Assembly: GCA_016875915.1 (NCBI GenBank)
Contig: VGOM01000002.1
Coordinates: 23,263 to 87,262 of the forward strand
DNA from: Chloroflexota bacterium
GTDB taxonomy: Bacteria > Chloroflexota > Dehalococcoidia > UBA2247 > RBG-13-53-26
Direction of reading: 5' to 3'
DNA: 64,000 nt
This document shows positions 11,428 to 27,985 of the stretch, in pieces. The notes under the pieces are model-generated. The model saw nothing but the letters and a program-made list of their open reading frames with translations. It had not been told where the DNA came from and searched no databases. Position numbers and translations under genes: made by a program. The number at the start of each line of letters is the position of its first letter. The stretch's first letter is position 1.

Positions 11428-11450
11428 AACTCAATGCTCCTCGTTCTCTT

Positions 11451-12416
11451 CTAGACTCTCTTCTTCCTCAAGAGGGATGTCGGCATCGAGAAGCGGTACA
11501 GGTAGCCGACGGGGTCGTCTATCCCGTCCATGACCTTCCTGATGTCCTCTTCCTTCTCGGCATCGACGATGGCCGCCAGGGCGGACACGAACTTGGCCCC
11601 GGAGTCCTCTACCCCCTCCACGGGTCCGAAGCAGCCCCGGCAGGGAAGATTGATATTGAGGCAAGCCTCTCCGCAGCCTGAGCGGGTGGCCGGTCCCAGG
11701 CAGAGCACGCCCTGCACCAGGAAACAGGTGTTGGGCTCCGCCTCGATCTGGTGGATCCTCTTGACCTCCTTGATGGTGAAACGGCTGGGTTTGGTCTTGT
11801 TGCGCGGACAGGTGTCGCACAGGGCTTTGTGCGGCGTCAGTGTCGAGCCCTTGGGGGGCAGCTTGCCTTCAAGGACGGCAGTCACCGCATTCATGATCAG
11901 GTCAGGAGGCGGGGGGCATCCCGGCAGGTAGTAGTCCACGTCGACGGCATGCTTGAGCGCATACACCTCACCGAAGAACTCCGGAAGCGTCAACTCCCGG
12001 CCATTCGAGGTGCATTTGGTCTGTGGGCGGCTGCCCTTGGGATTGACCACCGTTGGGGCGTCCCGGTACACCCAGTTGAAGATGTCTTCCTTCGTGGTCA
12101 GATTGGCCAGTCCGGGCGTCCCTCCAAAACAGGCGCAGGCTCCGAAGGCCAGCACCAACTGGGACTTCTTCCGGAGCAATCTGGCCACCTCTTCGTGATC
12201 GGAGTTCCTCACATTGCCGTTGATGATGCTCAGTGCGATCTCGCCGTCCTTCATGGCCTCCACGTGGTGGTACTTGAAGTCCAACGCCACCGGCCAGAGG
12301 ACGAAATCGACGGCGTCCACGACCTTGAGGACGGCCTCATTGATGTCCACGACAGCTTCGTCACAGCCCCCGCAGCCACCCAGCCAACAGATCGCCACTT
12401 TTGGTTTGTCTGCCAT
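11451..12416 (-). CDS. mvhG: [NiFe]-hydrogenase small subunit, group 3c
   Basis: Proximal-cluster Cys pattern (WLGGCGGCDEA...GACACFGG...LPGCPP) and a cytoplasmic type without a Tat signal. Confidence 0.9.
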   Translation of the reverse strand: MADKPKVAICWLGGCGGCDEAVVDINEAVLKVVDAVDFVLWPVALDFKYHHVEAMKDGEIALSIINGNVRNSDHEEVARLLRKKSQLVLAFGACACFGGTPGLANLTTKEDIFNWVYRDAPTVVNPKGSRPQTKCTSNGRELTLPEFFGEVYALKHAVDVDYYLPGCPPPPDLIMNAVTAVLEGKLPPKGSTLTPHKALCDTCPRNKTKPSRFTIKEVKRIHQIEAEPNTCFLVQGVLCLGPATRSGCGEACLNINLPCRGCFGPVEGVEDSGAKFVSALAAIVDAEKEEDIRKVMDGIDDPVGYLYRFSMPTSLLRKKRV

Positions 12417-12436
12417 CTTCGCTCCCTTTCACCAGT

Positions 12437-12862
12437 CTAGACCGCAGAGGCCTTCTCTGCGTGTTCCTTGGCCTTCTTCACCGGGCCCAGCTTGGCCAGC
12501 CTGTCGCTCATCTCCTTCACAATGGCGGGGATGGTCTTCCCCTCCGGGTCGAGAGACAGTCTGATCTCCAGCCTCTCCTTCTCGATTCCGTAGGATTCCA
12601 GCACCCGGCGCAGCAGATAGACCCTCTTCTTCGCCTCGAAGTTGCCGTCCTGGTAGTGACAATCGCCTTCCGGGCAGCCCAGGATCAGCACACCATCGGC
12701 ACCATGCTGGAAGGCACTGAGTATGTGGGTGGATTCGATCTTGCCGCTGCAGATGATGGGAATCCAGTTCTTCACCTGACGCGCCAGCGAGACCTCGTCA
12801 GCCACATAGCCCCAGCTAAACCTACAGGAGAAGCAGACCAACTTGGGTTCGTAGTTCTTCAT
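12437..12862 (-). CDS. mvhD: methyl-viologen-reducing hydrogenase delta subunit (MvhD) family protein
   Basis: FSCRFSWGY...ILGCPEGDCHYQDGN is the MvhD [2Fe-2S] signature. Confidence 0.85.
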   Translation of the reverse strand: MKNYEPKLVCFSCRFSWGYVADEVSLARQVKNWIPIICSGKIESTHILSAFQHGADGVLILGCPEGDCHYQDGNFEAKKRVYLLRRVLESYGIEKERLEIRLSLDPEGKTIPAIVKEMSDRLAKLGPVKKAKEHAEKASAV

Positions 12863-12895
12863 TTCTTCTCTCCCTAAGCCTCCTCTGGAGTAACT

Positions 12896-14686
12896 CTAGA
12901 GCGCGGCGCATGCCTCGAAGATGCGCTCTTCGGTGTCATCATCGACCAGCTTCCTGGCGTGTGACGGACAGGCCACTACGCACATGCCGCAGGACTTGCA
13001 CCGGAACATGTCCGTCGTCGATACGGTCTTGCCCTCCACATCGGTCAGCCTGGCCGAATCGTAGTTGCAGACATAGACACACATGCCGCAGCCACTGCAC
13101 CTCTTCTCGTCAACAGCCACCGAATAGAGCGACTTCTCAAAGCCTATGGAGATGCAGGCCTTGCAGGAAACGCACGGGCCGCAGGTGATACACCTCTTGG
13201 CCTCCTCCCTGGCTTCCTGCAGGGTGAAACCCTTCTCGAACAATTGGAAATGCATCCTCTTCTCAGGGGGTATCCAGGCTACCTCGGCTTCGGGCTTGTA
13301 GTCCCTCCTCAAGGGAATGCCAAACCCTTCGTAGTCCCTCTTCCGCCCCTCCCTCATGTCCAGGCCCCTGAGGAACCTCTCTATCGATTCAGCGGCGACC
13401 AATCCCTCCTTCATGGCCTCTACCATGAAGCCGATCCTCCTCACGTCGCCGCCCACAAAGACATAGCCCTTTCTCAGGCTCTGCAGGGTGAAGGGGTCCA
13501 CCACCAGCCGGCCCCGTTCGTCCAGTAGCCCCTCCCTCTGCAGGAAGGCCTTGTCCGGCACCTGCCCCACGGTGATGACCAGCATGTCACCTTCCATGTC
13601 GGTGCAGTCGGCACAGTCAAACTGGGGATTGAAGCCCTTTTCATCGAACACGCTGGTGCATTTGGGGCAGATGATCTTCTTGAATCTGCCGTGCTCACCA
13701 ACGATCTTCTGCACGCCGCGTGAGTACGTTATCGGTATCCCCTCTTCCCACGCCCCGCGGATTTCCTCCTCATCGGCAGGGATGCCATCCTTGGTGCCTT
13801 TGTCCTCACTCTCCAGACAGATGATGCTCACATCTCCACCCAGCCTCCTGGCCGTCCTGGCCACATCGAAGGCCACGTTGCCACCTCCGATGACCACCAG
13901 CCTCTTGCCCTTGAAGTAGTCCGCGGTGATATTGCCATGACTGACCTCATAGAGAAGGGTGTGGCCGTACATCACCCCGGACAGATCCTGCCCTTCCACG
14001 ACCTCTCCGTCGAAGGTCAGCACCCGGGGGTACGGCGTCCCCTTGGCCAGGAAGACAGCCCTGTAGCCTTCGTTTCTCAGCCTCTCCATCGTCAGTCGGC
14101 CCTCACCGACCCTGGACCCGAACTTGACGTCTATCCCGGCGATCCGCACCAGGCTGTCCATGGTGGTGGTCAGGACATCCTCCGGCAGGCGGTAGTTCGG
14201 TATGAGCCAAAGCGCGCCTCCCAGCCGCTTGGACTCCTCGAATATGGTCACCCGGTAGCCCTTCCTGCTCAGGGCATAGGCACACATCAGTCCGCCCGGC
14301 CCGCCACCGATGATGGCGATGTTCTCCTTGTCCTTGACGATGCTCAGTTCCTCTTTCTGTTTCAGATGCGGAGTGTAGTGATCAGAGAGGAACCTCTTGA
14401 GCAGCCTCCGCCTGATCGCCCCACCCTTGTTCTTGTAGTTGCACTCCAGCTCGCACAGTCCGCAGATATAGCCGCAGACGTTGAAGAAGGGATTCTTCTC
14501 ATACAGATAGTCGCCAATCTGAATGACCTCGTTCTTGGCCTGCTCCAACTCCTCCGGCAGCAGCGAGATGAGCACATTCGTCCGCTGGATGTCCTCGTTG
14601 ATGGGGCACTTGATCTGGCACGGTGGCAGGAGCTGCTTCATGGCTTCCTCAACCCGGGCCACTCCCTTGCTTTCGGTCCTCCACAT
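12896..14686 (-). CDS. GltD/NfnB/SudA-like FAD- and NAD(P)-binding oxidoreductase fused to a C-terminal poly-ferredoxin
   Basis: An N-terminal 2x[4Fe-4S] Cys region typical of GltD; two Rossmann GGG motifs (IIGGGPGG, VVIGGGNVAFD); and a C-terminal triple CxxCxxCxxxCP ferredoxin. GGAGG RBS. It is the first gene of the mvhD-G-A operon. Confidence 0.75.
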   Translation of the reverse strand: MWRTESKGVARVEEAMKQLLPPCQIKCPINEDIQRTNVLISLLPEELEQAKNEVIQIGDYLYEKNPFFNVCGYICGLCELECNYKNKGGAIRRRLLKRFLSDHYTPHLKQKEELSIVKDKENIAIIGGGPGGLMCAYALSRKGYRVTIFEESKRLGGALWLIPNYRLPEDVLTTTMDSLVRIAGIDVKFGSRVGEGRLTMERLRNEGYRAVFLAKGTPYPRVLTFDGEVVEGQDLSGVMYGHTLLYEVSHGNITADYFKGKRLVVIGGGNVAFDVARTARRLGGDVSIICLESEDKGTKDGIPADEEEIRGAWEEGIPITYSRGVQKIVGEHGRFKKIICPKCTSVFDEKGFNPQFDCADCTDMEGDMLVITVGQVPDKAFLQREGLLDERGRLVVDPFTLQSLRKGYVFVGGDVRRIGFMVEAMKEGLVAAESIERFLRGLDMREGRKRDYEGFGIPLRRDYKPEAEVAWIPPEKRMHFQLFEKGFTLQEAREEAKRCITCGPCVSCKACISIGFEKSLYSVAVDEKRCSGCGMCVYVCNYDSARLTDVEGKTVSTTDMFRCKSCGMCVVACPSHARKLVDDDTEERIFEACAAL

Positions 14687-14788
14687 AGTCGACGCCTCCG
14701 TTTACATAAGAATACTGGTGGCTTCAGAGGGATGGTTTCGGTTCCACTGCCCCACCACCCCACCCTCGTCAGAGCCGCAAAAACGAAC

Positions 14789-14995: not shown

Positions 14996-15082
14996 AGCCA
15001 ACAGGCATAATAGCGGAATCCAGTGCCACCGGCCCTGTGCTAATGTCATCAATAGCCAACAACCAAGGAGGCAGGGAACACA

Positions 15083-15253: not shown

Positions 15254-15421
15254 AGCCGCGATGCCGGTGGTGACGGGGGGAGGAAGCGCTGATCGACAGA
15301 GGGCGCTCCAGTGTGAGAACATAGCAGATGGGCCAAGTTCTCTCCCTTTCCGGAGGTCATCGGAGTACGATGCCAGGGCGCGTCTTTCGCCTGCCGAGAC
15401 TAACTCAGCCTCTCGTGTTGC

Positions 15422-16690
15422 GTGGGGCATATTGCCATGGTTAACGGCGCAGTAGCACCGTTCACAGGCGGCAACGAGGCTGAATGGGCCAGGTACCTCG
15501 AGAGGCTGCTCAAGACCGAGAGAGACCGCCTGATGTCGATCCTCAACTCCATGGAGGAGGGGGTCACCATCATCGGGCCGGACCACAAGATCCGGTTCAT
15601 GAACCCCAGCATGATGCGTCAGTTTGGTGACGGCACTGGCCTCCCCTGCTACAGACACCTCCGTGGCTACGATCAGCCCTGCCCCGACGTCTGCAGACTG
15701 CCGGAGGTGGTCAAGGGTGCTACGGAGCGATGGGAACACAGCTTTCCGGAAGGGGTGACCTACGAGGTGATCTCCTCCCCCTTTGCCGATACGGATCAGA
15801 CACCCTGCATGCTGTCAACGTTCAGGAATGTCACTCAGCAGAAGCAGATCCAGCTTGAGCTGATCAGGCTGAACCAGCTCAGATCAGAGGTCCTGGCCCA
15901 GATAACCAAGGACCTGGATCAGACCTCACATGAGGTGGTCCGCCTGCAGGAGGAGAAGCGCCGTTTCGTCCGCTTCCTGAGCGCCGTGGTACACGATCTC
16001 CGCGCTCCTCTGGCAGTCACTCAGAGCTGTCTGTGGACAATCCTGGAGGGCTACACCGGCGACGTCAACGACGAACAGAAGGACCTCCTGCAGAGGGGCA
16101 CCAGAAGGATCAATGACCTGATGGCACTTGTTGACGATCTGCTGGACATCCCCCGCATCGAATCGGGTCAACTGGTTCACGAGATGCAGGGCGTCTCCGT
16201 GAACGAAGTTGTCCGCCGGGCGCTCGATGGTCTGGACAGCCTGGCCGCAGAGAAGGGCATCAAGCTGGAGACGGCGCTGCCCGCCGTGACCCCCAGGGTC
16301 CATGGGTCAGCCCGGAGGCTGCAGCAGGTGGTCACCAATCTGGTGAACAACGCCATCGCCTACACCAACAAAGGGCAAGTGACGGTCAAGGTCTCTGAAG
16401 ACAACGGCAACGTCAAGGTTGAAGTCATGGACAGCGGCATCGGCATACCGGCGGACGATCTGTCGCGGCTCTTCGAGGATTTCTTCCGGGCCAGCAATGT
16501 GTCGGCCAAGGGTACCGGACTGGGACTGTCAATATCGAAGAGGATTGTCGAGGCCCATGGAGGCAGAATCTGGGTGGAGAGCCCGTGCCCCGAGACCAAG
16601 AAGGGCAGCAAGTTCAGCTTCACCCTGCCCAAGAGGACCGCGGTGCTGGCCGACGGAACAGCCAATGGGAATACTGGCAGACCTGCTTGA
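15422..16690 (+). CDS. cytoplasmic PAS-domain sensor histidine kinase with conserved 4-Cys PAS motif
   Basis: No TM helix. PAS domain with C-x10-C-x3-C...PCML; HisKA (AVVHDLRAPL) and HATPase_c (GTGLGLSISKRIVEAHGG). Paralog of the kinase at 23659. Confidence 0.85.
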   Translation: MGHIAMVNGAVAPFTGGNEAEWARYLERLLKTERDRLMSILNSMEEGVTIIGPDHKIRFMNPSMMRQFGDGTGLPCYRHLRGYDQPCPDVCRLPEVVKGATERWEHSFPEGVTYEVISSPFADTDQTPCMLSTFRNVTQQKQIQLELIRLNQLRSEVLAQITKDLDQTSHEVVRLQEEKRRFVRFLSAVVHDLRAPLAVTQSCLWTILEGYTGDVNDEQKDLLQRGTRRINDLMALVDDLLDIPRIESGQLVHEMQGVSVNEVVRRALDGLDSLAAEKGIKLETALPAVTPRVHGSARRLQQVVTNLVNNAIAYTNKGQVTVKVSEDNGNVKVEVMDSGIGIPADDLSRLFEDFFRASNVSAKGTGLGLSISKRIVEAHGGRIWVESPCPETKKGSKFSFTLPKRTAVLADGTANGNTGRPA

Positions 16691-16724
16691 GCCTGCCATA
16701 TAATTGTGAAGGAGGTAGGAGGCG

Positions 16725-17204
16725 ATGGAGAAGAAAGCCAAGATCCTGCTGATCGACGACGATCCCGACTTCGTGGAGGTAACCAGGAAGGTCCTGGAAA
16801 AGGGCGAGTCCTACCAGGTCGTCATTGCCGTCAACGGCAAGGAGGGCCTAGAGAAGGCCAAGAAGGAGAAGCCTGACCTCATCCTCCTGGACATCCTCAT
16901 GCCGGTGACAGATGGCTTCGGCTTCGCGGAACAGTTCAGCAAAGAGAGGTCACTGCGCAACATCCCCGTCCTGGCTCTGACCAGCTTCTCCACCTCTCTC
17001 GGGGAGCCATTTGCCTTTGACGTGGCGGAATTCATCAGGAAGCCCGTCGGCCCCCGAGACCTGATCGAGAGGGTGGAGAAGCACCTCAAACGAGCCGCAG
17101 AGAAGGCAGAGACGCGCGCTGTCAAGGTAAGCCCCAAGAGGCGTCCGGCCTCAGCCAAGCCCAGGCCGAAGGCCCCGGCCAGGACCAGCAAGCGTCCCAA
17201 GTAG
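16725..17204 (+). CDS. response regulator, receiver domain only, with a Lys/Pro/Ala-rich basic C-terminal tail
   Basis: CheY-like receiver (LLIDDDPDF...DLILLDILMP...) and then KVSPKRRPASAKPRPKAPARTSKRPK. Confidence 0.85.
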   Translation: MEKKAKILLIDDDPDFVEVTRKVLEKGESYQVVIAVNGKEGLEKAKKEKPDLILLDILMPVTDGFGFAEQFSKERSLRNIPVLALTSFSTSLGEPFAFDVAEFIRKPVGPRDLIERVEKHLKRAAEKAETRAVKVSPKRRPASAKPRPKAPARTSKRPK

Positions 17205-17275
17205 CCCTGCGGCTGCAGACCATTCCCGAGGCAGGCCAGATTGAGTCTTGACGGCAGAACGGATCAGGAAGAGAG

Positions 17276-18430
17276 GTGTCCACCATAGTCGTATCGCCTT
17301 TCAAGGAAGCCATCGATGCCGTTGTGGAGGCGGGGGGCAAGGCTCTGAAGCAGTGCTACCAGTGCGGCCTGTGCACCGGCACATGTCCGTGGAACCTGGT
17401 GAAGAGCTTCCCCACCCGCAAACTGATCCATCAGTCCCAGCTTGGCGCCGCCGACTTCGAGAGTGAGGATACCTGGACGTGCGCCACGTGCCGGGCATGC
17501 GTGGCCCGCTGCCCCAGGGGGGTGGCCATCATAGACATAATGAAGGCCCTCCGCGGAGTGATCGTGGGCATGGGGGCCGGCTATGTGCCGGACGGCCTGC
17601 GGGTGACCCTGAAGAACATCGCCGGAACGGGCAATCCTCTGGGCGAATCAGCGGAGAAGCGGACGGACTGGGCCAAGGACCTGGAGATCGCCCCTTTCAC
17701 CAGTGACACCGAGGTGCTCTACTTCTCCTGCTGCATCCCGGCCTACGACCCCAACATCAAGAGGGTGGCCAGGGCCACGGCGGCGATCCTCAAGAAGGCC
17801 GGGGTCAGCTTCGGTATGCTCGGCCCCCGGGAGAGCTGCTGCGGCGAGAGCGTGCGCAAGGCGGGAAACGAGAGCCTGTTCCAGACGCTGGCTCAGAGCA
17901 ACATCAGCGCCTTCGTGGAGAGAGGCGTGAAGAAGATCGTGGTCAGCTCTCCACACTGCTACCACACATTCAAGAATGAATACCCCGAGCTGGGCAGCAG
18001 CTTCGAGGTGACCCATCTCACCCAGTACCTTGCCGGACTGATCAGGGAGGAGCGGCTGAAGCCGAAGAAGGAACTGAACTTGAAGGTGACCTATCATGAT
18101 CCCTGCTACCTTGGGCGCCACAACAGCGTCTACGACGAACCCAGAGAGATCCTGACGAAGATCCCGGGGCTGGACCTCGTGGAGATGGCTGAGTGCCGAG
18201 AGAACAGCCTCTGCTGCGGAGGGGGCGGGAGCAGGATATGGCAGGAGACCAAGAAGGGCGAGAGGCTGTCCGATCTACGGCTGGACCAGGCGGTGGCCAC
18301 AGGGGCCAGCGTGCTGTCCACAGCCTGCCCCTACTGCATGCTCAACTTCGAGGACAGCATACTCACATCCAACAAGGGCGATATGATCAAGTTGAAGGAG
18401 ATCTCGGAACTGGTTCTGGAAGCCCTGTAG
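17276..18430 (+). CDS. heterodisulfide reductase subunit D-like protein (HdrC-like 2x[4Fe-4S] ferredoxin fused to an HdrB-like double CCG domain)
   Basis: CGLCTGTCP / CATCRACVARCP, then two CCG motifs (FSCCIPAYDP...CCGES and YHDPCYLGRHN...LCCGGGG). GTG start with an AGGAAGAGAGG RBS. Confidence 0.8.
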   Translation: MSTIVVSPFKEAIDAVVEAGGKALKQCYQCGLCTGTCPWNLVKSFPTRKLIHQSQLGAADFESEDTWTCATCRACVARCPRGVAIIDIMKALRGVIVGMGAGYVPDGLRVTLKNIAGTGNPLGESAEKRTDWAKDLEIAPFTSDTEVLYFSCCIPAYDPNIKRVARATAAILKKAGVSFGMLGPRESCCGESVRKAGNESLFQTLAQSNISAFVERGVKKIVVSSPHCYHTFKNEYPELGSSFEVTHLTQYLAGLIREERLKPKKELNLKVTYHDPCYLGRHNSVYDEPREILTKIPGLDLVEMAECRENSLCCGGGGSRIWQETKKGERLSDLRLDQAVATGASVLSTACPYCMLNFEDSILTSNKGDMIKLKEISELVLEAL

Positions 18431-18454
18431 CGAACGCGCAAGGAGATTCTGACC

Positions 18455-20452
18455 ATGGCCAGGATAGGCGTCTTCATCTGCCACTGCGGCACCAACATCG
18501 CCGGCACCGTCGACATCGGCCGTGTGGTTGAGGCAGCCGGTCAGATGCCTATGGTGGTCCACGCCGCCGACAACAAGTACAACTGCAGCGAACCGGGGCA
18601 AGCCCTGATCCGCGACGCCATCGCGGAGCACAGGCTGAGCCGGGTGGTCATCGCCGCCTGTTCGCCGCGGATGCACGAGAATACCTTCCGCAAGACCGTG
18701 GCTGCCGCGGGGCTGAACCCGTATCTGCTGGAGATGGCCAATCTGCGTGAGCACTGCAGCTGGGTCCACAGCGATGGGAAGGAAGCGGCCACCACCAAAG
18801 CCATCGAGCTGATCCGGATGGCCGTGTCCAAGGTGGCCCGCCACGAGAAGCTCTTCCCGAAGCAGGTGTCCCTCACCAAGCGGGCACTGGTCATTGGTGG
18901 GGGCATCTCGGGCATCCAGGCGGCCCTGGACATCGCCAATTCCGGCTACAAGGTGGTCCTGGTCGAGCGCGAGCCGACCATCGGCGGCCGCATGGCCCAA
19001 CTGGACAAGACATTCCCTACCCTGGACTGCTCCTCGTGCATCCTCACGCCCAAGATGGTGGATGTGGCCCAGCATGCCAACATCACCCTGCTGACCAGCG
19101 CGGAGGTGAAAGAGGTCAAGGGCTTCGTGGGCAATTTCGAGGTGAGCATTGTCCAGAAGGCCAGGAAGGTTGACCATGCCAAGTGCACCGGGTGCGGAAT
19201 ATGCTGGCAGAAATGCCCGGAGAAGGCCCCCTCGGAGTTCGACATGGGTCTGGGGAAGCGCTCCGCCATCTACATCCCCTTCCCGCAGGCGGTGCCGCCG
19301 AAGCCGGTGATTGACACCGCCAACTGCCGCTACCACAAACACCTGCGCTTCGTGGAGGAGAAGCGGGAGGGCAAGCCGCCACCCCAGTGCCGCGTCTGCG
19401 AGAAACTCTGCCCGGTGGGCGCCATTGACTGGGAGCAGAAGGACGAAGTCCTGACGGAGAAATTCGGAGCCATCATTGTGGCCACGGGCTACAAGGCCTT
19501 CGAGCCCGCGGTCTATGCAGAGCTGGGCTACGGCAAGCACCCCGACGTGATCACCGGACTGGAGATGGAGAGGATGATGAGCGCCTCCGGGCCAGCCGGC
19601 GGCGACGTGACCCGTCCCTCCAACGGCGAGCATCCCAGGGACGTGGTCTTCCTCACGTGCATTGGCTCCAGGGATGAACAGAGGGGCCGGACCTACTGCA
19701 GCAAGGTCTGCTGCATGTACATCGCCAAACACGCCATCATACTGAAGGAGCACTATCCGGACGTGCAGTGCTACGTCTTCTACATGGACGTCCGGGCAGT
19801 GAGCAAGGACTACGAGGAATTCTACAAGCGGGCCCAGGAGAGCGGCGCCATATACATCCGGGGCAAGGTGTCGGGAATACGGCAGGAGGATGGCCGGCTC
19901 GTCGTGCGGGGCGAGGACACGCTGCTGGGGGAGATGGTCGAGATCCCGGCCGATATGGTAGTGCTGGCCGTGGGCATGGAGCACAGTCCGGGATCGGCCG
20001 AGTTGGCCCAGGCCTTGAAGGTCAGCTATGACATCAACGAGCTGTTCATCGAGGCCCACCCCAAGCTGCGTCCCGTGGAGACGATGAGCGATGGGGTCTT
20101 TGTGGCCGGAGCCTGCGTGGGCCCCCGGGACATCCCTGAATCGGTAGCCAGCGGGAGCGCCGCCGCCGCCAAGGTGGCTGCCCTATTCAGCCAGGAATTC
20201 CTCACCACCGACCCCATGGTGGCCAGTGTGGACCAGATGAAATGCGGCGGCTGCCTGCTGTGCACCAAGGTCTGCCCCTTCAAGGCCATCGACACTCAGG
20301 TACTCCGGGATGGCCGGACCGTGGCCGTGGTCAACGAGAGCCTGTGCAAGGGCTGCGGCCTGTGTGTTGCCACCTGCCGGTTCGGTGCGGCCAACCTGCG
20401 CGGGTTCACGCAGCAGCAGCTGCTGGCTGAGGTGACATCTCTATGGCAATAG
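18455..20452 (+). CDS. hdrA: heterodisulfide reductase subunit A-like flavoprotein
   Basis: N-terminal GVFICHCGTNIAGTVD motif, FAD motif VIGGGISGIQAALD, an inserted ferredoxin and a C-terminal ferredoxin (CGGCLLCTKVCP...CKGCGLCVATC). Confidence 0.9.
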   Translation: MARIGVFICHCGTNIAGTVDIGRVVEAAGQMPMVVHAADNKYNCSEPGQALIRDAIAEHRLSRVVIAACSPRMHENTFRKTVAAAGLNPYLLEMANLREHCSWVHSDGKEAATTKAIELIRMAVSKVARHEKLFPKQVSLTKRALVIGGGISGIQAALDIANSGYKVVLVEREPTIGGRMAQLDKTFPTLDCSSCILTPKMVDVAQHANITLLTSAEVKEVKGFVGNFEVSIVQKARKVDHAKCTGCGICWQKCPEKAPSEFDMGLGKRSAIYIPFPQAVPPKPVIDTANCRYHKHLRFVEEKREGKPPPQCRVCEKLCPVGAIDWEQKDEVLTEKFGAIIVATGYKAFEPAVYAELGYGKHPDVITGLEMERMMSASGPAGGDVTRPSNGEHPRDVVFLTCIGSRDEQRGRTYCSKVCCMYIAKHAIILKEHYPDVQCYVFYMDVRAVSKDYEEFYKRAQESGAIYIRGKVSGIRQEDGRLVVRGEDTLLGEMVEIPADMVVLAVGMEHSPGSAELAQALKVSYDINELFIEAHPKLRPVETMSDGVFVAGACVGPRDIPESVASGSAAAAKVAALFSQEFLTTDPMVASVDQMKCGGCLLCTKVCPFKAIDTQVLRDGRTVAVVNESLCKGCGLCVATCRFGAANLRGFTQQQLLAEVTSLWQ

Positions 20453-20874
20453 ACTTCGAACCCAGGATTGTGGGCTTCCTCTGCAACTGGTGCAGCTACG
20501 CCGGGGCTGATATGGCCGGCACGGCACGGATCTGCTACCCCTCGAACATCCGCGTCATCAGGGTGCCCTGCTCGGCCAGGATCGACCCCCTCCTGGTGGT
20601 CAAGGCCTTTCAACTCGGCGCCGACGGCGTGCTGGTGGCGGGCTGCCACCCCGGCGACTGCCACTACACCGAAGGTAACTACTACTCCCGGCGCCGCTTC
20701 GCGCTGCTCTATCCCTTCCTGGAATACCTCGGCATCGAGAAAGGCCGGCTCCGACTGGAATGGGTGTCAGCCTCCGAAGGGAGGAAGTTCTCACATGTGG
20801 TGTCCTCCTTCACCGAGGGCCTGGTCAGCCTGGGCCCCCGGGAGAAGGTCCCGGCAGAAGGAGCGCTGCCATGA
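20443..20874 (+). CDS. MvhD/FlxD-like [2Fe-2S] protein
   Basis: FLCNWCSYAGADMAG...VAGCHPGDCHY. Overlaps the hdrA stop by 10 nt and the next gene by ATGA. Confidence 0.85.
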   Translation: MAIDFEPRIVGFLCNWCSYAGADMAGTARICYPSNIRVIRVPCSARIDPLLVVKAFQLGADGVLVAGCHPGDCHYTEGNYYSRRRFALLYPFLEYLGIEKGRLRLEWVSASEGRKFSHVVSSFTEGLVSLGPREKVPAEGALP

Positions 20875-21731
20875 GCCAGACAGCCCAGATCCGCCAAGCG
20901 GCCAGGGAACTGCTGCAGGGCAAGGCCGTGGAGTGCGTCATCGGCTATGAACGTGGCACCGATGGCGTGAACGCCAGGCCATTCTTCGCCTACGAGGCGG
21001 CGGAGGCCGACAGGCTGATCTTCGATCAAACCTGCACTCACGACCTGGCCAAGTATCTGCTCAACCGCAAGGGCAAGTCCACAGCCATAGTGGTCAAACC
21101 CTGCGATTCACGGGCCATCAACTTGCTCCTCAACGAGAGCCAGATTCAGCGGGACAAGCTCCACATCATTGGAGTGGTCTGCCCCGGCGTGGTGGAGAGG
21201 CGCTGGGGGACTCCCGGCGCCAAGCAGCTCAACGCCTGCCAGGTGTGCCAGCAGCATACGCCGGTGGTCTACGACACCCTGGTAGGCCAACCCGTCTCAG
21301 AGCCGGCGGTTGCCGACCCATACCCCGACGTCGCCGGGATGGAAGCCAAACCGGCCGACGAGAGACGAACCTTCTGGGAAGAGCAGTTCAGCCGGTGCCT
21401 GCGCTGCTATGCCTGCCGTCAGGCCTGCCCTGGCTGCTATTGCCCGGAGTGCTTCGCGGAGAGGCTGGACCCGCTGTGGGTGGGGATCAGGATCGCTCCG
21501 GGCGAGAACGAGGTCTGGAACACCATGCGGGCCTTCCATCTGGCCGGGCGGTGCATCGGCTGCTACCAGTGCGAGCAGGTCTGCCCTGTGAACATCCGAC
21601 TCAGTCTCCTCAACCGCAAGCTGGAGAAGGACGTCCTGGGTATGTTCCATTTCCAAGCGGGCATGGATGCCGAAAGCCCGCCGCCCTTCTCCACATATCA
21701 GAAGGACGAGAAGCTGGGGATAGGCGAATGA
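20871..21731 (+). CDS. iron-sulfur subunit (2x[4Fe-4S]; FrhB/FlxC-like)
   Basis: Start chosen at MSQTAQIRQ (ATGA overlap with the upstream gene). CLRCYACRQACPGCYCPEC and CIGCYQCEQVCP motifs. Confidence 0.65.
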   Translation: MSQTAQIRQAARELLQGKAVECVIGYERGTDGVNARPFFAYEAAEADRLIFDQTCTHDLAKYLLNRKGKSTAIVVKPCDSRAINLLLNESQIQRDKLHIIGVVCPGVVERRWGTPGAKQLNACQVCQQHTPVVYDTLVGQPVSEPAVADPYPDVAGMEAKPADERRTFWEEQFSRCLRCYACRQACPGCYCPECFAERLDPLWVGIRIAPGENEVWNTMRAFHLAGRCIGCYQCEQVCPVNIRLSLLNRKLEKDVLGMFHFQAGMDAESPPPFSTYQKDEKLGIGE

Positions 21732-22720
21732 GACAGTTCATCTCAAAGCAGAATCTGATCTCGTGGCTGCGCCAGCAGATGGAGGCTCGCCAGTTGGTGG
21801 CGCCAACGCAGGTAGATGACCTCATCCTCTTCAGGAGGATCGACCGTGTAGATGACGTCATCCTTCAGTTCCAGAACACCGCAACATCTCCCAAGGAATG
21901 GCTGTTCCCCAAGACCGAGACCCTGTTCCATGTGGAGCGAAAGGACGGAAAGGCGGAACTGATCCCCGCCGAGATCGACGGGGAAACCGTGATCTTCGGC
22001 CTTCGCCCATGCGATGCCAGGGGCATCACCATGCTGGACCTGCCCTACCTGGCGGACCCGGCTGACACCCTCTACCGTCAGCACCGCCAGAAGACCGTTC
22101 TGGTGGGCCTCTCCTGTCTGACGGCCTGCCCGGAGTGCTTCTGTGAAAGCATGGGCAGCGGACCAGAGGACACGGCGGCACTGGACATCATGTTTACCGA
22201 GGTCCGGGACGGCTACCTCGTTCAGGCGATCACAGAGAAGGGCAGGAGTCTCATGCCTCAGGCACTGCTGTCGCCTGCAGAGACGGTCAAGCCGCCAGCC
22301 CCCGAGACGGCCCCGGTGCCAAGTGAAGGCATCACGGCCAAGATGCGCCAAGCCTTCGACGGTCCCTATTGGGGAAGGGTGGCAGACAGATGCATCCACT
22401 GCAATGTCTGCGCCTATGTCTGCCCCACATGCTACTGCTTCGACGTCCGCGACTACACCAACAAGGGCAGCGTGGAGCGGGTGCGCAGCTGGGAGAGCTG
22501 TCAATCGCCGGGGTTCACCAAGATCGCCGGCGGCCATGACCCCCGGGCCAACAAGGGGGCCAGGATGAGACAGAGATTCAGCCACAAACTGCTCTACTTC
22601 CCGGAGCAGTTCGGTCCCCTGCATTGCGTCGGCTGCGGCCGATGCGTCAGGGCCTGCCCGGTGAACATCGACATCAGAGAGATCATGCAGGACGTACAGA
22701 GAATGGGGGCCCCCAAGTGA
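21728..22720 (+). CDS. iron-sulfur subunit, sulfhydrogenase-beta (HydB) / AsrA / FlxB-like
   Basis: Start at MRQFISKQ (ATGA overlap). CPECFCESMG, CIHCNVCAYVCPTCYC and CVGCGRCVRACP motifs. 330 aa, typical of HydB/AsrA. Confidence 0.7.
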   Translation: MRQFISKQNLISWLRQQMEARQLVAPTQVDDLILFRRIDRVDDVILQFQNTATSPKEWLFPKTETLFHVERKDGKAELIPAEIDGETVIFGLRPCDARGITMLDLPYLADPADTLYRQHRQKTVLVGLSCLTACPECFCESMGSGPEDTAALDIMFTEVRDGYLVQAITEKGRSLMPQALLSPAETVKPPAPETAPVPSEGITAKMRQAFDGPYWGRVADRCIHCNVCAYVCPTCYCFDVRDYTNKGSVERVRSWESCQSPGFTKIAGGHDPRANKGARMRQRFSHKLLYFPEQFGPLHCVGCGRCVRACPVNIDIREIMQDVQRMGAPK

Positions 22721-23550
22721 AGTCCGACAACCCCTTCGTGCCCCATATGGCCACGCTGCGGGAGGCAGTGGAGCTGACCCCCGACGTGATGCTCTTCAGG
22801 ATCGACCTCGACGACCCCGACCTCAAGCCCGACTTCAGCTACCAGCCCGGCCAGTTCGTCTTCGTATCCGCCTTCGGGACAGGTGAGTCTCCCTTCGGAT
22901 TGACCTCAGTGTCGTACCGCCGCGGGCCGCTGGAAGTAGCCGTGAGAAAGGTGGGCACGGTGACCGGTTCGCTGCACGAACTGGAGGCCGGGGCCTCCGT
23001 GGGCGTGAGGGGTCCGTTCGGCAATCACTTCCCCCTGGATGATTTCAGAGGGAAGAACATCCACATCATCGGAGGCGGCATCGGTTTCGCACCGCTGCGG
23101 CCGGTGATCCTGACCATCCTGGACCACAGGTCGGACTACGAGGACCTGCTCATCCTCAACGGGGCCCGTACTCCACAGGACCTGGTCTTCGCCAGCGAGT
23201 TCGACACCTGGGCGGCATCGCCGAGGACGAGGCTGGAACTCACCGTTGATGCCGGTGACAAGAGCTGGACGGGCCGGGTGGCCCTGATCCCTTCGGTGGT
23301 CAGGGAGCTGAACCTCTCGCCGCAGAACTCCGTGGCCGTGATCTGCGGTCCGCCGATCATGATCCATTTCACCCTGATTGAACTGAAGAAGCTGGGCTTC
23401 GCCGACCATCAGATCGTGACCACCCTGGAAGGAAAGATGAAGTGCGGCCTGGGCAAGTGCGCCCGCTGCAATGTCGGCGACAAGTACGTCTGCAAAGACG
23501 GTCCCGTCTTCACCCTGGAGCAGATCTCCACGCTCCTGGAGCAGTTCTGA
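22717..23550 (+). CDS. FAD/NAD(P)-binding oxidoreductase with C-terminal [2Fe-2S] (HydG/AsrB/PyrK/FlxA-like)
   Basis: FNR-like fold (RLFSI-type FAD region GQFVFV; NAD(P) motif IGGGIGFAPLRP) and C-terminal CGLGKCARCNVG...C. GTG start in a GTGA overlap with the upstream stop; an ATG at 22747 is the alternative. Confidence 0.8.
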   Translation: MKSDNPFVPHMATLREAVELTPDVMLFRIDLDDPDLKPDFSYQPGQFVFVSAFGTGESPFGLTSVSYRRGPLEVAVRKVGTVTGSLHELEAGASVGVRGPFGNHFPLDDFRGKNIHIIGGGIGFAPLRPVILTILDHRSDYEDLLILNGARTPQDLVFASEFDTWAASPRTRLELTVDAGDKSWTGRVALIPSVVRELNLSPQNSVAVICGPPIMIHFTLIELKKLGFADHQIVTTLEGKMKCGLGKCARCNVGDKYVCKDGPVFTLEQISTLLEQF

Positions 23551-23658
23551 GCATCGTTGGAGACAGCCCTACTCATCGCCACATCCCCCCTCAGACCAGT
23601 CCGCACCCGATGGCTGCCGGCACGATGGACAGACCGATTTCCGGTGTGAGAATATAGG

Positions 23659-24960: not shown

Positions 24961-24974
24961 AGACTGAAAGCGCG

Positions 24975-25664
<690 letters not shown>

Positions 25665-25688
25665 ACCGGAGAGAGAAACCCCGTCCCC

Positions 25689-27975: not shown

Positions 27976-27985
27976 GGGGTTAGCC

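What the first reader, a model, noticed from the sequence alone, without database searches (positions are those of the whole stretch)
17276..23550. Flx-Hdr-like six-gene cluster built around an HdrD-type (CCG) subunit rather than HdrBC
Six overlapping or tightly spaced genes (ATGA and GTGA overlaps) encode an HdrD-like HdrC+HdrB fusion, HdrA, an MvhD/FlxD-like protein, two Fe-S proteins, and an FNR-like FAD/NAD(P)H oxidoreductase with [2Fe-2S] (FlxA/HydG/AsrB-like). This matches the logic of NADH-dependent FlxABCD-HdrABC bifurcating complexes. The gene order and the HdrD-type catalytic subunit differ from those systems, and no hydrogenase is encoded in the cluster. The physiological disulfide or other acceptor is unknown in a non-methanogen.
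Basis: partly seen in the sequence, partly recalled or inferred. Interest (0 to 1): 0.65.

Follow-up and report, generated by a model that had tools for sequence, protein, structure and literature searches.

The report
Flx–HdrA operon with BamD-like subunit
A six-gene operon in an anaerobic Chloroflexota genome encodes an electron-splitting (bifurcating) enzyme complex of a kind already noticed but never characterised, and its supposed "disulfide reductase" subunit looks instead like BamD of benzoyl-CoA reductase, which passes electrons to a flavoprotein rather than to a disulfide.

Summary
Six tightly coupled + strand genes (17276-23550) encode a fused HdrC+HdrB-like protein, a full-length HdrA, MvhD/FlxD, two Fe-S proteins and an FNR-type FAD/NAD(P)H/[2Fe-2S] protein. 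The operon recurs with the same order in two independent Chloroflexota assemblies and in Smithella/Syntrophaceae.

The Flx-Hdr logic holds, and HdrA keeps the bifurcating-FAD residues (E372, K425). The CCG subunit, however, is not an HdrD orthologue: it is 31-33% identical to Methanosarcinales HdrD. It belongs to the BamD family (50-55% identity to BamD in class II benzoyl-CoA reductase operons). It carries the four BamD hallmarks: a Cys-to-Ser change (S225) and H227, W322 and Y353, which fill the heterodisulfide pocket. In BamD, EtfD and EMO such modules exchange electrons with ETF.

The most likely function is a reversible NAD(P)H:ferredoxin plus flavoprotein (ETF-like) oxidoreductase, not a heterodisulfide reductase.

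"No hydrogenase" is true only inside the stated coordinates, because two [NiFe]-hydrogenase operons flank the cluster.

Hdr/Flox clusters with "HdrD" replacing HdrBC were already noted in Syntrophobacter fumaroxidans. This is therefore a new member of a known, uncharacterised kind.

The parts
17276..18430 (+). g1: a soluble 384-aa subunit with two cubane [4Fe-4S] motifs (C27/30/33/37 and C69/72/75/79) and two CCG (non-cubane-cluster) domains. It is a BamD-family protein, labelled 'HdrD-like' only by domain architecture. Inferred role: high-potential output module.
   Evidence: Pfam CCG x2 plus Fer4. Best PDB match is EtfD 9ojn_A at 238 bits; HdrC scores 75 bits and HdrB 30 bits. It is 31-33% identical to real HdrD and 50-55% identical to BamD homologues in Bam operons. 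S225, H227, W322 and Y353 match BamD Ser, His230, Trp325 and Tyr356.
18455..20452 (+). g2: a full-length type I HdrA (665 aa) with an N-terminal cluster domain, a TrxR-like FAD domain, and inserted and C-terminal ferredoxin domains. Inferred role: the bifurcating flavin site.
   Evidence: 735 bits and 53% identity to 5odc_A over residues 3-663, with 28/31 Cys conserved. E372 and K425 are equivalent to E356 and K409. Best NCBIfam model is HdrA2 at 851 bits, below its cutoff.
20443..20874 (+). g3: an MvhD/FlxD-type [2Fe-2S] adaptor (143 aa). It overlaps g2 by 10 nt.
   Evidence: Pfam FlpD, E 7.8e-52, full length. It matches the MvhD part of the HdrA2 model at 172 bits and VhuD at 116 bits. Junction shown.
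20871..21731 (+). g4: an FlxC-like Fe-S protein (286 aa) related to FdhB/FrhB but lacking about 85 residues of the central part. It has two CxxCxxCxxxC motifs. Inferred role: docks on MvhD and wires g5/g6 to it.
   Evidence: It matches FdhB of Fdh-Hdr complexes (8rvu_E, 92 bits), aligning residues 13-108 with 29-126 and 168-275 with 272-377. Weak Pfam hit to FrhB_FdhB_C. Cys motifs shown. ATGA overlap with g3.
21728..22720 (+). g5: an FlxB-like Fe-S protein (330 aa) of the AsrA / sulfhydrogenase-beta type.
   Evidence: Pfam Fer4_22, E 7e-34. NCBIfam AsrA 176 bits, ShyB 171 bits and HydB 163 bits, all below their cutoffs. PDB 9nez_B, sulfhydrogenase I beta, 160 bits. ATGA overlap with g4.
22717..23550 (+). 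g6: an FlxA-like FNR-type subunit (277 aa) with FAD and NAD(P)H binding domains and a C-terminal [2Fe-2S] site. Inferred role: entry or exit point for NAD(P)H.
   Evidence: Pfam FAD_binding_6, NAD_binding_1 and DHODB_Fe-S_bind. PDB 9nez_C, sulfhydrogenase I gamma, 201 bits. GGGIGFAP and CGLGKCARC...VC motifs. GTGA overlap with g5.
15422..17204 (+). An upstream histidine kinase (15422-16690) and a receiver-only response regulator (16725-17204) on the same strand, ending 71 nt before g1. This is a probable regulator of the operon; the association is inferred from conserved adjacency only.
   Evidence: Pfam HisKA/HATPase_c and Response_reg. The same RR-to-g1 adjacency occurs in L089 and L090. Receiver genes also lie next to HdrA/g1 homologues in L007, L013 and L059.
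9964..14686 (-). A linked neighbour, not part of the operon. It is a divergent operon encoding a GltD/NfnB-like NAD(P) Fe-S flavoprotein (12896-14686), MvhD (12437-12862), a VhuG-like small subunit (11451-12416) and a VhuA-like [NiFe] large subunit (9964-11427). It may be an alternative or upstream electron-input module.
   Evidence: NCBIfam hits. DPCLSCATH motif. In the closest Chloroflexota relatives, g1 homologues lie directly upstream of this hydrogenase set on the same strand (L005-L009, L058). Mvh genes also adjoin g1/HdrA homologues in L013, L059 and L086.

Best explanation
The six genes encode one soluble, HdrA-centred, flavin-based electron-bifurcating (or, run backwards, confurcating) complex.

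**Proposed electron path**
- g6 (FAD, [2Fe-2S]) exchanges a hydride with NAD(P)H.
- g5 and g4 (Fe-S) relay single electrons to the [2Fe-2S] cluster of MvhD (g3).
- MvhD feeds the bifurcating FAD of HdrA (g2).
- From that flavin, the low-potential electron leaves through HdrA's ferredoxin domains to ferredoxin.
- The high-potential electron goes through the two cubane clusters of g1 to its two non-cubane-type clusters.

**The acceptor**
g1 is a BamD-type module whose heterodisulfide pocket is filled by His227, Trp322 and Tyr353, and whose distal cluster has lost one cysteine (Ser225). The high-potential partner is therefore most probably a flavoprotein that docks on g1, with ETF the best candidate. 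It is probably not a CoM-S-S-CoB-like or DsrC-like disulfide.

**Net reaction**
2 NAD(P)H + Fd(ox) + ETF(ox) <-> 2 NAD(P)+ + Fd(red) + ETF(red). In a fatty-acid-oxidising, H2-producing anaerobe the reverse direction would re-oxidise ETF.

**Shown versus inferred**
- Shown: gene content, coupling and conservation; cofactor motifs; HdrA FAD-site residues; BamD-family membership and signature residues of g1.
- Inferred: that the six proteins form one complex, the electron path, bifurcation itself, the identity of the acceptor, the direction, and NADH versus NADPH.
For: **Operon structure and conservation**
- Overlapping or 24-nt-spaced genes.
- The same operon occurs in L089 and L090. The same order occurs in Smithella/Syntrophaceae loci L068, L069 and L075.

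**HdrA**
- 53% identical to structurally solved HdrA, with 28/31 Cys conserved.
- It keeps E372 and K425, the residues used to tell bifurcating from non-bifurcating HdrA.

**Input module**
- g5 and g6 match the NADPH-linked beta/gamma subunits of P. furiosus sulfhydrogenase.
- g4 matches FdhB, a subunit present in solved HdrABC-formate dehydrogenase assemblies. That FdhB contacts MvhD in those structures is from memory of the literature and was not checked here.

**g1 as a BamD-family protein**
- 37 of the 88 loci in the clustering (41 of 91 aligned homologues) carry AFOR-type BamB and/or BamC next to the g1 homologue; the full BamB-BamC-[g1 homologue]-BamE-BamF-BamGHI order was read in example loci such as L038 and L032.
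- The NJ tree puts g1's Chloroflexota clade next to the BamD clade and far from real HdrD.
- S225 is present in 90/91 family members, H227 in 91/91, W322 in 89/91 and Y353 in 88/91.
- The spacing is H+95 and H+126, identical to BamD His230/Trp325/Tyr356.
- HdrB and HdrD have Cys, Gly, Ala and Phe at those four sites.

**Published structures**
- In BamD these residues occupy the CoM-S-S-CoB site, the Cys-to-Ser change remodels the distal cluster, and cryo-ET shows ETF docked on BamD (bioRxiv 10.64898/2026.04.10.717634).
- The equivalent His blocks the substrate site in M. smegmatis EtfD (PMC13083937).
- The same holds in S. aciditrophicus EMO, whose non-cubane clusters take electrons from ETF (bioRxiv 10.64898/2026.08.18.745454).

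**Context**
- An acyl-CoA dehydrogenase gene lies in the window at 37948-39216. From general knowledge of that family, this implies an ETF somewhere in the genome.
Against: - No ETF gene lies in the 64-kb window. None lies next to the cluster in L012 or L069.
- The BamD-ETF assignment comes from a preprint, based on a roughly 10 Å subtomogram map.
- g1 keeps the CCG double cysteine in both domains. It also keeps both cysteines equivalent to HdrB's substrate-displaced bridging Cys81 and Cys234 (C228, C354). Residual thiol/disulfide chemistry is therefore not excluded by sequence.
- The literature on homologous clusters assumes a thiol/disulfide pair.
- Complex formation, bifurcation and nucleotide specificity are untested.
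- Orthology of g4-g6 to D. vulgaris FlxCBA was not tested directly, because no sequences were available.
Confidence: 0.5

Rival explanations
1. This is a classical Hdr/Flox complex. NAD(P)H is bifurcated to ferredoxin and to a still-unknown thiol/disulfide couple (a DsrC-like protein, a lipoyl-type carrier or a small heterodisulfide), which is reduced at the CCG clusters of g1. That is the first reader's reading.
For: The domain architecture equals HdrC+HdrB. Both CCG double cysteines and both HdrB bridging-Cys equivalents are kept. The best NCBIfam model for g1 is TfrB, a thiol-oxidising enzyme, at 168 bits. The literature on homologous clusters assumes a thiol/disulfide pair.
Against: g1 lacks one of the ten HdrB/HdrD cluster cysteines (S225). 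It has His, Trp and Tyr where BamD blocks the heterodisulfide site, and genuine HdrD and HdrB have Gly, Ala and Phe there. No DsrC/TusE-type gene was found in the window. The TfrB score is far below the model cutoff of 385. In Smithella a set with separate HdrC and HdrB lies directly beside the g1-type set, which suggests the two output modules are not equivalent.
Confidence: 0.2
2. The HdrA/g1 core is chiefly an H2-linked system. The neighbouring GltD-like/MvhD/MvhG/MvhA hydrogenase plugs into HdrA through its own MvhD, or feeds it via NAD(P)H. The Flx-like module is then an alternative input, much as Mvh and Fdh share Hdr in methanogens.
For: g1 homologues in the closest Chloroflexota relatives are adjacent to the same hydrogenase set and have no Flx genes (L005-L009, L058). 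L059 has MvhD-MvhG-MvhA-g1-HdrA, and L013 and L086 also combine g1/HdrA with MvhGA. The window holds two MvhD genes.
Against: In the window the hydrogenase operon is divergent. It is separated from g1 by about 2.6 kb that includes a two-component system, whereas g3-g6 are translationally coupled to HdrA. The hydrogenase has its own GltD-like flavoprotein and may be a self-contained NAD(P)-linked or bifurcating enzyme. This rival concerns only the donor, and it is compatible with the best explanation for the acceptor side.
Confidence: 0.12
3. This is a non-bifurcating redox chain. The complex simply moves electrons between NAD(P)H and one acceptor bound at g1, and the HdrA flavin acts as a plain relay.
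For: Bifurcation has not been shown biochemically for any Hdr/Flox complex in the papers read here. Some HdrA-like flavins are non-bifurcating, for example the second FAD of BamE.
Against: g2 keeps the Lys/Glu pair (K425, E372) and the complete cluster set, including both ferredoxin domains that form the low-potential exit in solved HdrA.
Confidence: 0.08
4. g1/HdrA serve a BCRII-like low-potential reductase (an aromatic ring or similar substrate) whose catalytic BamBC-type partner is encoded elsewhere in the genome.
For: g1 is most similar to BamD. A NuoF homologue 51% identical to BamH and a BamI-like N-terminus lie 4-8 kb downstream.
Against: tblastn finds no BamB or BamC homologue in the window. 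g2 is a single-TrxR HdrA, not a fused double HdrA like BamE. The downstream NuoEFG-like genes belong to a [NiFe]-hydrogenase operon. g1 branches outside the Bam-context clade.
Confidence: 0.03

Closest known systems
FlxABCD-HdrABC (Hdr/Flox) of Desulfovibrio vulgaris / D. alaskensis
   Same: Both have an FNR-type NAD(P)H/FAD/[2Fe-2S] subunit, two Fe-S subunits, an MvhD-like subunit and HdrA in one operon. Both have a proposed NAD(P)H-driven flavin-based bifurcation to ferredoxin plus a high-potential acceptor.
   Different: Here the output module is a single fused BamD-type protein, not separate HdrB and HdrC. It has 9 rather than 10 cluster cysteines, and His/Trp/Tyr fill the substrate pocket. 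The gene order is the mirror image (g1-hdrA-flxD-flxC-flxB-flxA). The host is a Chloroflexota with no dsr genes in the window. Orthology of g4-g6 to DVU Flx proteins was not tested.
Hdr/Flox cluster of Syntrophobacter fumaroxidans (Sfum_1969-1977), and the related loci of Desulfotomaculum reducens (Dred_0137-0148) and Smithella
   Same: These are Flox genes plus HdrA, with an 'HdrD' replacing HdrBC, as described in PMC5947623 and PMC4759654. Smithella/Syntrophaceae loci L068, L069 and L075 have exactly the same six-gene order.
   Different: Amino-acid identity to the Smithella proteins is only 33-61%. Those genomes carry extra hdrA copies or a second tandem set with split HdrC/HdrB. None has been characterised biochemically, and the published reading is a thiol/disulfide pair. 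The Sfum sequences themselves were not compared.
BamDEF module of class II benzoyl-CoA reductase (BamBCDEFGHI, Geobacter metallireducens)
   Same: g1 is 50-55% identical to BamD homologues and shares the Ser/His/Trp/Tyr signature. It is paired with an HdrA-type bifurcating flavoprotein and an MvhD-type adaptor. The high-potential branch of BCRII ends at BamD, where ETF docks.
   Different: The window has no BamB/BamC tungsten module. HdrA here is a canonical single-TrxR protein, not the fused double BamE. MvhD is short, with no wHTH extension. The input is an Flx-type FNR module instead of the NuoEFG-like BamGHI. The low-potential output is presumably free ferredoxin.
MvhADG-HdrABC and FdhAB-MvhD-HdrABC of methanogens
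   Same: HdrA is 53% identical and has the full domain and cluster set. An MvhD adaptor is present. g4 is homologous to FdhB.
   Different: The donor module is NAD(P)H-type. There is no HdrB-type open catalytic site. The organism is bacterial and no CoM/CoB metabolism is expected.
EtfD / EMO (ETF:menaquinone oxidoreductases; PDB 9ojn)
   Same: This is the best solved-structure match for g1 (238 bits). It shares the His that completes or blocks the proximal non-cubane cluster and the variable distal cluster. Its non-cubane domain works as an ETF-docking electron-transfer module.
   Different: g1 has no haem-b membrane domain and no C-terminal extension. It has SPHC rather than CPHC, and it keeps the second Cys of the first CCG motif (T539 in EtfD). 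It is attached to HdrA, not to the quinone pool.

Membership tests
FlxABCD-HdrABC (Hdr/Flox) | FlxA: an FNR-type subunit with FAD, an NAD(P)H site and [2Fe-2S] | tested here: met
   g6 has FAD_binding_6, NAD_binding_1 and DHODB_Fe-S_bind. It scores 201 bits to sulfhydrogenase gamma 9nez_C. Motifs shown.
FlxABCD-HdrABC (Hdr/Flox) | FlxB and FlxC: two Fe-S subunits, plus FlxD, an MvhD-like subunit, in the same operon as hdrA | tested here: met
   g5 (Fer4_22, AsrA/HydB-like), g4 (FdhB-related, two CxxCxxCxxxC motifs) and g3 (FlpD, E 7.8e-52) overlap each other and hdrA. This is an architecture-level test. Orthology to DVU2399-2401 was not tested.
FlxABCD-HdrABC (Hdr/Flox) | Separate HdrB and HdrC with the full HdrB-type cysteine set (two 5-Cys CCG motifs) | tested here: not met
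   g1 is a single fused protein. Its first CCG domain reads C...CCG...SPHC, with 4 conserved Cys; C152 is present in only 50/91 homologues.
FlxABCD-HdrABC (Hdr/Flox) | NADH oxidation coupled to reduction of ferredoxin and a disulfide (DsrC) | not testable with these tools
   Needs enzyme assays. No DsrC-type gene was found in the window.
HdrA, bifurcating type I | Lys and Glu at the flavin N5 (K409 and E356 of M. thermolithotrophicus HdrA) | tested here: met
   K425 and E372 align to K409 and E356. The criterion comes from PMC12054007.
HdrA, bifurcating type I | Full domain set and cluster cysteines, including the CxGSRD...CSxxCC motif and C194/C197 | tested here: met
   The alignment covers residues 3-663 against 5-649 of 5odc_A at 53% identity, with 28/31 Cys conserved. 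An 18-residue insertion lies in the inserted ferredoxin domain.
HdrD of HdrDE (methanogens) | Close sequence relationship to Methanosarcinales HdrD and the CxGC third motif in the first CCG domain | tested here: not met
   g1 is 31-33% identical to P0148, P0132, P0197, P0208, P0214, P0221 and P0239. These have CAGC where g1 has SPHC, Ala where g1 has W322, and Phe where g1 has Y353. In the tree they form a distant outgroup.
HdrD of HdrDE (methanogens) | A partner membrane cytochrome b (HdrE) | tested here: not met
   No such gene lies in or next to the operon. The neighbours are HdrA and a response regulator.
BamD (class II benzoyl-CoA reductase) | Cys-to-Ser change at the distal cluster, and His/Trp/Tyr filling the heterodisulfide pocket (Ser, His230, Trp325, Tyr356 in G. 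metallireducens) | tested here: met
   g1 has S225, H227, W322 and Y353 with the same +95/+126 spacing. They are conserved in 88-91 of 91 family members. The G. metallireducens sequence itself was not available. The match rests on spacing and on Bam-context homologues.
BamD (class II benzoyl-CoA reductase) | Sequence and phylogenetic affiliation with BamD of Bam operons | tested here: inconclusive
   g1 is 50-55% identical to homologues flanked by AFOR-type BamB and BamC. In an NJ tree without support values, g1's clade is sister to the Bam-context clade, not inside it.
BamD (class II benzoyl-CoA reductase) | Operon partners BamB (tungsten AOR-type) and BamC, a fused double-HdrA BamE, and BamGHI | tested here: not met
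   tblastn finds no BamB or BamC in the window. g2 is a single HdrA. The input module is Flx-type.
BamD (class II benzoyl-CoA reductase) | ETF as the docking partner | not testable with these tools
   No ETF gene was found in the window. This needs the whole genome, complex prediction or biochemistry.
EtfD / EMO | An N-terminal haem-b membrane domain fused to the Fe-S and non-cubane domains | tested here: not met
   g1 is 384 aa and aligns only to residues 404-743 of the 1042-aa EtfD.
Sulfhydrogenase beta-gamma / AsrAB | Co-encoded catalytic partner ([NiFe] alpha-delta subunits, or AsrC sirohaem subunit) | tested here: not met
   g5 and g6 score below the NCBIfam cutoffs for AsrA/B and HydB/G. 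They are followed by a histidine kinase, not by catalytic subunits.

The most novel reading that the evidence does not exclude
The widespread bacterial 'Hdr/Flox' and 'Mvh-Hdr-like' clusters built on this BamD-type subunit use no heterodisulfide at all. Under this reading they are soluble NAD(P)H (or H2):ferredoxin/ETF oxidoreductases. Their HdrA flavin bifurcates to ferredoxin and to ETF, or run in reverse confurcates ETF(red) + Fd(red) to NAD(P)H. This would give quinone-poor anaerobes such as Dehalococcoidia-like Chloroflexota and syntrophs a membrane-independent way to re-oxidise the ETF pool from beta-oxidation. BamD of benzoyl-CoA reductase would then be one specialised offshoot of this older module.
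Probability: 0.35. Interest if true: 0.7.

Novelty: new member of a known kind. Interest (0 to 1): 0.45.

Why it matters
Hdr/Flox-type clusters are among the most common "uncharacterised redox complexes" in genomes of anaerobes, including sulfate reducers, syntrophs, acetogens and Chloroflexota. Metabolic reconstructions routinely invoke an unknown thiol/disulfide couple for them.

The output subunit of one large subset is BamD-like. Its disulfide pocket is blocked, and the characterised proteins that share the blocking His (BamD, EtfD, EMO) all work with ETF. This turns the open question of what the heterodisulfide is into a concrete test: assay ETF versus disulfides.

If the ETF reading is right, energy budgets for fatty-acid and aromatic degradation and for H2 metabolism in these organisms would need revising. 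The non-cubane-cluster domain would also be seen mainly as a flavoprotein-docking electron-transfer module, not a catalytic site.

If the classical reading is right, this is simply one more Hdr/Flox operon in a new phylum.

Tried and rejected
1. **Thiol carrier in the window.** I looked for a DsrC/TusE-type or other thiol carrier. Pfam/NCBIfam scans of about 55 ORFs found none.
2. **Conserved Cys-rich ORF in relatives.** A 134-aa Cys-rich ORF (ITCxGNIGYCCGLxKxCxWRDxC) lies between g1 homologues and the hydrogenase in relatives. I tested it as a possible carrier. It is absent from the window and confined to one sub-clade, so it was dropped.
3. **C152 as a compensating ligand.** I considered that C152 replaces the missing fifth ligand of the first CCG domain. 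It is conserved in only 50/91 homologues, so this was rejected.
4. **Assembly chimaera at the g1/g2 junction.** All four Logan contigs carrying the exact g1 end 66-74 nt after it. This suspicion was rejected because L089 and L090 show the same junction.
5. **E. coli GlpC and GlcF.** These share the loss of the first Cys of the CxxC motif but lack the His. g1 is therefore not of that type.
6. **ETF genes beside the cluster.** I looked in L012 and L069. The neighbours there are HydEFG maturases, an ABC transporter and NifU/NifS.
7. **Promoter and terminator scan.** Counts were no higher than in shuffles, so the scan was uninformative.
8. **Unavailable sources.** Pereira 2011 was looked up by DOI and PMC id and is not held in the library. 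Ramos 2015 was not looked up and is known here only through citing papers. BCRII coordinates are not in the PDB copy, because no BamD hit appeared.
9. **Unused resources.** Structure prediction was not run because no coordinates are returned and complexes cannot be modelled. The metagenome-contig scan and the representative-protein search were also not used.

Full report

Yes. ORF listing and translation show six + strand genes between 17276 and 23550.

Refined boundaries are as follows:

| Gene | Coordinates |
|---|---|
| g1 | 17276 (GTG)-18430 |
| g2 | 18455-20452 |
| g3 | 20443-20874 |
| g4 | 20871 (ATG)-21731 |
| g5 | 21728-22720 |
| g6 | 22717 (GTG)-23550 |

There is a 24-nt spacer with AAGGAG before g2. 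g2 and g3 overlap by 10 nt. g3/g4 and g4/g5 overlap as ATGA, and g5/g6 as GTGA.

Third-position GC is 0.82-0.86 for g1, g2, g3 and g6 in a window of about 62% GC. The over-long ORF that contains g5 scored 0.69, and g4 was not scored.

Domain assignments are strong:
- g1: a 4Fe-4S dicluster domain plus two CCG domains.
- g2: HdrA.
- g3: FlpD/MvhD.
- g4: an Fe-S protein.
- g5: Fer4_22, AsrA/HydB-like.
- g6: FAD_binding_6 + NAD_binding_1 + DHODB [2Fe-2S].

The consensus scan found no terminator-like site on the + strand, the coding strand, anywhere in 14600-24200. The three - strand matches inside g1 are no more than shuffles give.

**2. Conservation and host**

The closest homologues of g1 are all from Chloroflexota/Dehalococcoidia MAGs. 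The window is therefore from an anaerobic Chloroflexota.

Two independent assemblies of close relatives carry the same six genes in the same order. They also share the upstream receiver gene and the downstream histidine kinase and response regulator. L089 (GCA_964388585.1) has 88-96% identity per protein, and L090 has 77-92%.

The same six-gene order also occurs in Smithella/Syntrophaceae (L068, L069, L075) at 33-61% identity. A Dehalococcoidia single-cell genome (L012) has g1-g2 facing g6-g5-g4-g3.

Four short Logan contigs with the exact g1 all stop 66-74 nt after it. I treated that as a possible chimaera signal and rejected it, because L089 and L090 share the junction.

**3. The individual parts**

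*HdrA (g2).* It aligns end to end with the crystallised HdrA of Methanothermococcus thermolithotrophicus (5odc_A, 735 bits). Identity is 53% and 28 of 31 cysteines are conserved.

The two residues used in the literature to tell bifurcating from non-bifurcating HdrA are K409 and E356 (PMC12054007). They align to K425 and E372.

The CIGSRD...CSKVCC motif and C194/C197 are also present.

*MvhD (g3).* g2 plus g3 together resemble a split version of the Methanosarcina HdrA2 (HdrA-MvhD fusion) model, with 851 and 172 bits.

*The NAD(P)H module (g4-g6).* g5 and g6 match the beta and gamma subunits of Pyrococcus sulfhydrogenase I (9nez_B 160 bits, 9nez_C 201 bits).

g4 is related to FdhB, a subunit of solved Fdh-Hdr super-complexes (8rvu_E). 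It aligns at both ends and lacks about 85 central residues.

This matches the published description of FlxABCD as an NAD(P)H module joined to HdrA through an MvhD-like subunit. The order here is the mirror image of flxABCD-hdrABC.

I could not obtain D. vulgaris Flx sequences, so orthology of g4-g6 is untested.

**4. The CCG subunit is not HdrD**

By sequence, the best solved relative of g1 is the soluble part of mycobacterial EtfD (9ojn_A, 238 bits). HdrC gives 75 bits and HdrB only 30.

I retrieved genuine Methanosarcinales HdrD sequences with a bait query. They are 31-33% identical to g1.

The diagnostic difference is in the third element of the first CCG domain:

| Protein | Motif | Source |
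|---|---|---|
| HdrB | CNGC | |
| HdrD | CAGC | |
| EtfD | CPHC | |
| E. coli GlpC | SSTC | |
| E. coli GlcF | ASGC | |
| g1 | SPHC | |

Across 91 family members from many phyla, S225 is present in 90, H227 in 91 and C189 in 90. The extra C152 is present in only 50.

**5. What the family is**

I clustered all ORFs from 88 related loci. In 37 of those loci (41 of the 91 aligned homologues) an AFOR-type BamB and/or BamC gene lies next to the g1 homologue, which is 50-55% identical.

Read in example loci such as L038 and L032, that operon consists of:
- an AOR-family protein (Pfam AFOR_N/AFOR_C);
- a 180-aa Fe-S protein;
- the g1 homologue;
- a large double HdrA-like protein;
- an MvhD+HTH protein;
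- NuoE-, NuoF- and [2Fe-2S]-type subunits.

A 2026 preprint with the cryo-EM structure of the G. metallireducens enzyme (10.64898/2026.04.10.717634) reports three things:
- A Cys-to-Ser change converts the distal non-cubane cluster into a modified [3Fe-4S] cluster.
- Cryo-electron tomography shows ETF docked on BamD as the high-potential acceptor.

g1 has S225, H227, W322 and Y353, with the identical +95/+126 spacing. W and Y are conserved in 89 and 88 of 91 members. HdrB and HdrD have Ala and Phe there.

The same His blocks or completes the proximal cluster in two other proteins:
- M. smegmatis EtfD (PMC13083937).
- S. aciditrophicus EMO, where a 3.0 Å structure shows ETF delivering electrons to the non-cubane clusters (10.64898/2026.08.18.745454).

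An NJ tree, without support values, places the Bam-context clade as sister to the Chloroflexota clade that contains g1. Flx-linked Smithella and Mvh-linked sequences branch deeper, and real HdrD is a distant outgroup.

The BamD-type features therefore look ancestral to a broad family, not specific to ring reduction.

**6. A modular picture**

The conserved core across the family is the g1 type plus HdrA (single, fused or with a GltD insertion) plus MvhD. The electron-input or low-potential module is swapped:
- an Flx-type NAD(P)H module (window, L089, L090, L012, Smithella);
- an Mvh-type [NiFe]-hydrogenase (L005-L009, L058, L013, L059, L086);
- BamGHI plus BamBC (Bam operons).

In Smithella, a set with separate HdrC and HdrB lies immediately upstream of the g1-type set. 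This argues that the two output modules are not interchangeable.

**7. Surroundings in the window**

Divergently upstream (9964-14686, - strand) lies a GltD/NfnB-like Fe-S flavoprotein with MvhD and VhuG/VhuA-like [NiFe]-hydrogenase subunits.

Downstream (27409-35128) lies a Hox-type operon. It comprises a NuoE-like protein, a 1051-aa NuoF+GltD fusion, a NuoG/molybdopterin-like protein, and small and large [NiFe] subunits.

The three redox operons are separated by two-component systems.

No ETF or DsrC gene was found by the Pfam/NCBIfam scans, and tblastn found no BamB or BamC. An acyl-CoA dehydrogenase and two CoA-transferases lie at 37948-41664.

**8. Most likely mechanism**

Confidence is 0.5.

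The proposed electron path is NAD(P)H <-> g6 <-> g5/g4 <-> MvhD <-> HdrA FAD. From the flavin, the low-potential electron goes to ferredoxin. The high-potential electron passes through g1 to a docked flavoprotein, most likely ETF. The system would be reversible.

Shown:
- the genes, their coupling and their conservation;
- the cofactor motifs;
- the HdrA flavin-site residues;
- BamD-family membership and signature residues of g1.

Inferred:
- complex formation and bifurcation;
- the acceptor;
- the direction;
- the nucleotide specificity.

Main weaknesses:
- No ETF gene lies nearby.
- The BamD-ETF evidence is a preprint at about 10 Å.
- g1 retains the CCG double cysteines and both HdrB bridging-Cys equivalents.

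The classical disulfide reading remains a live rival (0.2). A hydrogenase-fed variant (0.12) concerns only the donor side.

**9. Comparison with what is known, and novelty**

An Hdr/Flox cluster in which HdrBC is replaced by "HdrD" was explicitly described for S. fumaroxidans (PMC5947623).

A Flx-like/MvhD/HdrD locus was described for D. reducens (PMC4759654).

The window therefore holds a new, Chloroflexota member of a known but biochemically uncharacterised kind.

This analysis adds that the "HdrD" of these clusters is a BamD-type module. The recent BamD, EtfD and EMO structures therefore point to ETF rather than a disulfide. I did not find this link stated in the papers read.

Noticed in passing
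window 9964-14686 (- strand): A divergent operon encodes a 596-aa GltD/NfnB-like NAD(P)-binding Fe-S flavoprotein with an HdrA-like C-terminal ferredoxin domain, then MvhD, a VhuG-like small subunit and a VhuA-like [NiFe] large subunit (DPCLSCATH present). It looks like a group-3c-type hydrogenase in which a GltD-like flavoprotein takes HdrA's place. It may be NAD(P)-linked or bifurcating. The same four genes follow g1 homologues in the closest relatives.
   Followed up: partly
window 27409-35128 (+ strand): A Hox-type [NiFe]-hydrogenase operon. It comprises a NuoE-like protein (188 aa), a 1051-aa NuoF+GltD fusion, a 659-aa NuoG-like protein with a molybdopterin domain, a small subunit (178 aa) and a large subunit ([10 protein letters not shown] and DPCLSCSTH motifs). 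The NuoF part is 51% identical to a BamH homologue. This is a third candidate flavin-based bifurcating system within 25 kb.
   Followed up: partly
window 26874-27293 (+ strand): A 139-aa ORF without any Pfam match, rich in cysteines (…CWEMVRCPEAIKNDCPASKGHSVACWEIAGTYCKLPSGHDTSICEVCRVYKRW…), lies just upstream of the Hox-type operon. A 139-aa ORF without Pfam match sits at the same place in L089.
   Followed up: no
L005 11265-11672; L007 11295-11699; also L006, L008, L009, L058: A conserved 134-aa ORF with no Pfam match lies between the g1 homologue and the GltD-like/Mvh hydrogenase in related Chloroflexota. It carries the motif ITCxGNIGYCCGLxKxCxWRDxCRQALG, which contains a CCG. It is absent from the window.
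   Followed up: partly
L068, L069, L075 (Smithella/Syntrophaceae), about 430-16700: Two tandem Flx-Hdr sets. The first has a 1476-aa GltD+HdrA giant, MvhD, an FlxC-like protein, an HdrC-like protein (Fer4), an HdrB-like protein (CCG only, 282 aa), an FlxB-like protein and an FlxA-like protein. It is directly followed by a BamD-type set in the same order as the window. NifU/NifS-like genes lie downstream.
   Followed up: partly
window 14789-14815 (- strand): A strong GC-rich hairpin followed by a T-run (GGGAGAGCCCGCAGCGGGGGCTCTCCC GTTCGTTTTT) sits about 100 nt upstream of the start of the GltD-like hydrogenase gene on its own strand. It is therefore in the leader rather than at a gene end, and may be an attenuator or the terminator of an unannotated transcript.
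   Followed up: no
window 15083-15253 (+ strand): A 56-aa ORF encodes a single hydrophobic helix followed by a basic tail (MEWQLIVALVIMIPVILLPVAFVWYLNLGG…). It lies upstream of the histidine kinase and is also called as a gene on the Logan contigs L001 and L002.
   Followed up: no
window 15422-17204, 23659-26399, 35185-37948: There is an unusual density of two-component regulators between the redox operons: HK plus receiver-only RR, HK plus OmpR-type RR, a NarL-type RR, and a GAF-PAS HK plus NarL-type RR. Receiver genes also flank HdrA/g1 homologues in L007, L013 and L059.
   Followed up: no
L001-L004 (Logan contigs SRR7979708, SRR7008010, SRR7008372, SRR7989281): All four metagenome contigs carrying the exact g1 protein end 66-74 nt after its stop codon, at the start of hdrA. 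This suggests an assembly-graph branch there, from hdrA paralogues or strain variation in what follows g1.
   Followed up: partly
window 9090-9797 (- strand) and 37948-41664: A 235-aa ORF matches only one domain of ADP-forming acetate/acyl-CoA ligases. It lies next to ComEA/ComEC genes. Further on there is an acyl-CoA dehydrogenase flanked by two family III CoA-transferases.
   Followed up: no
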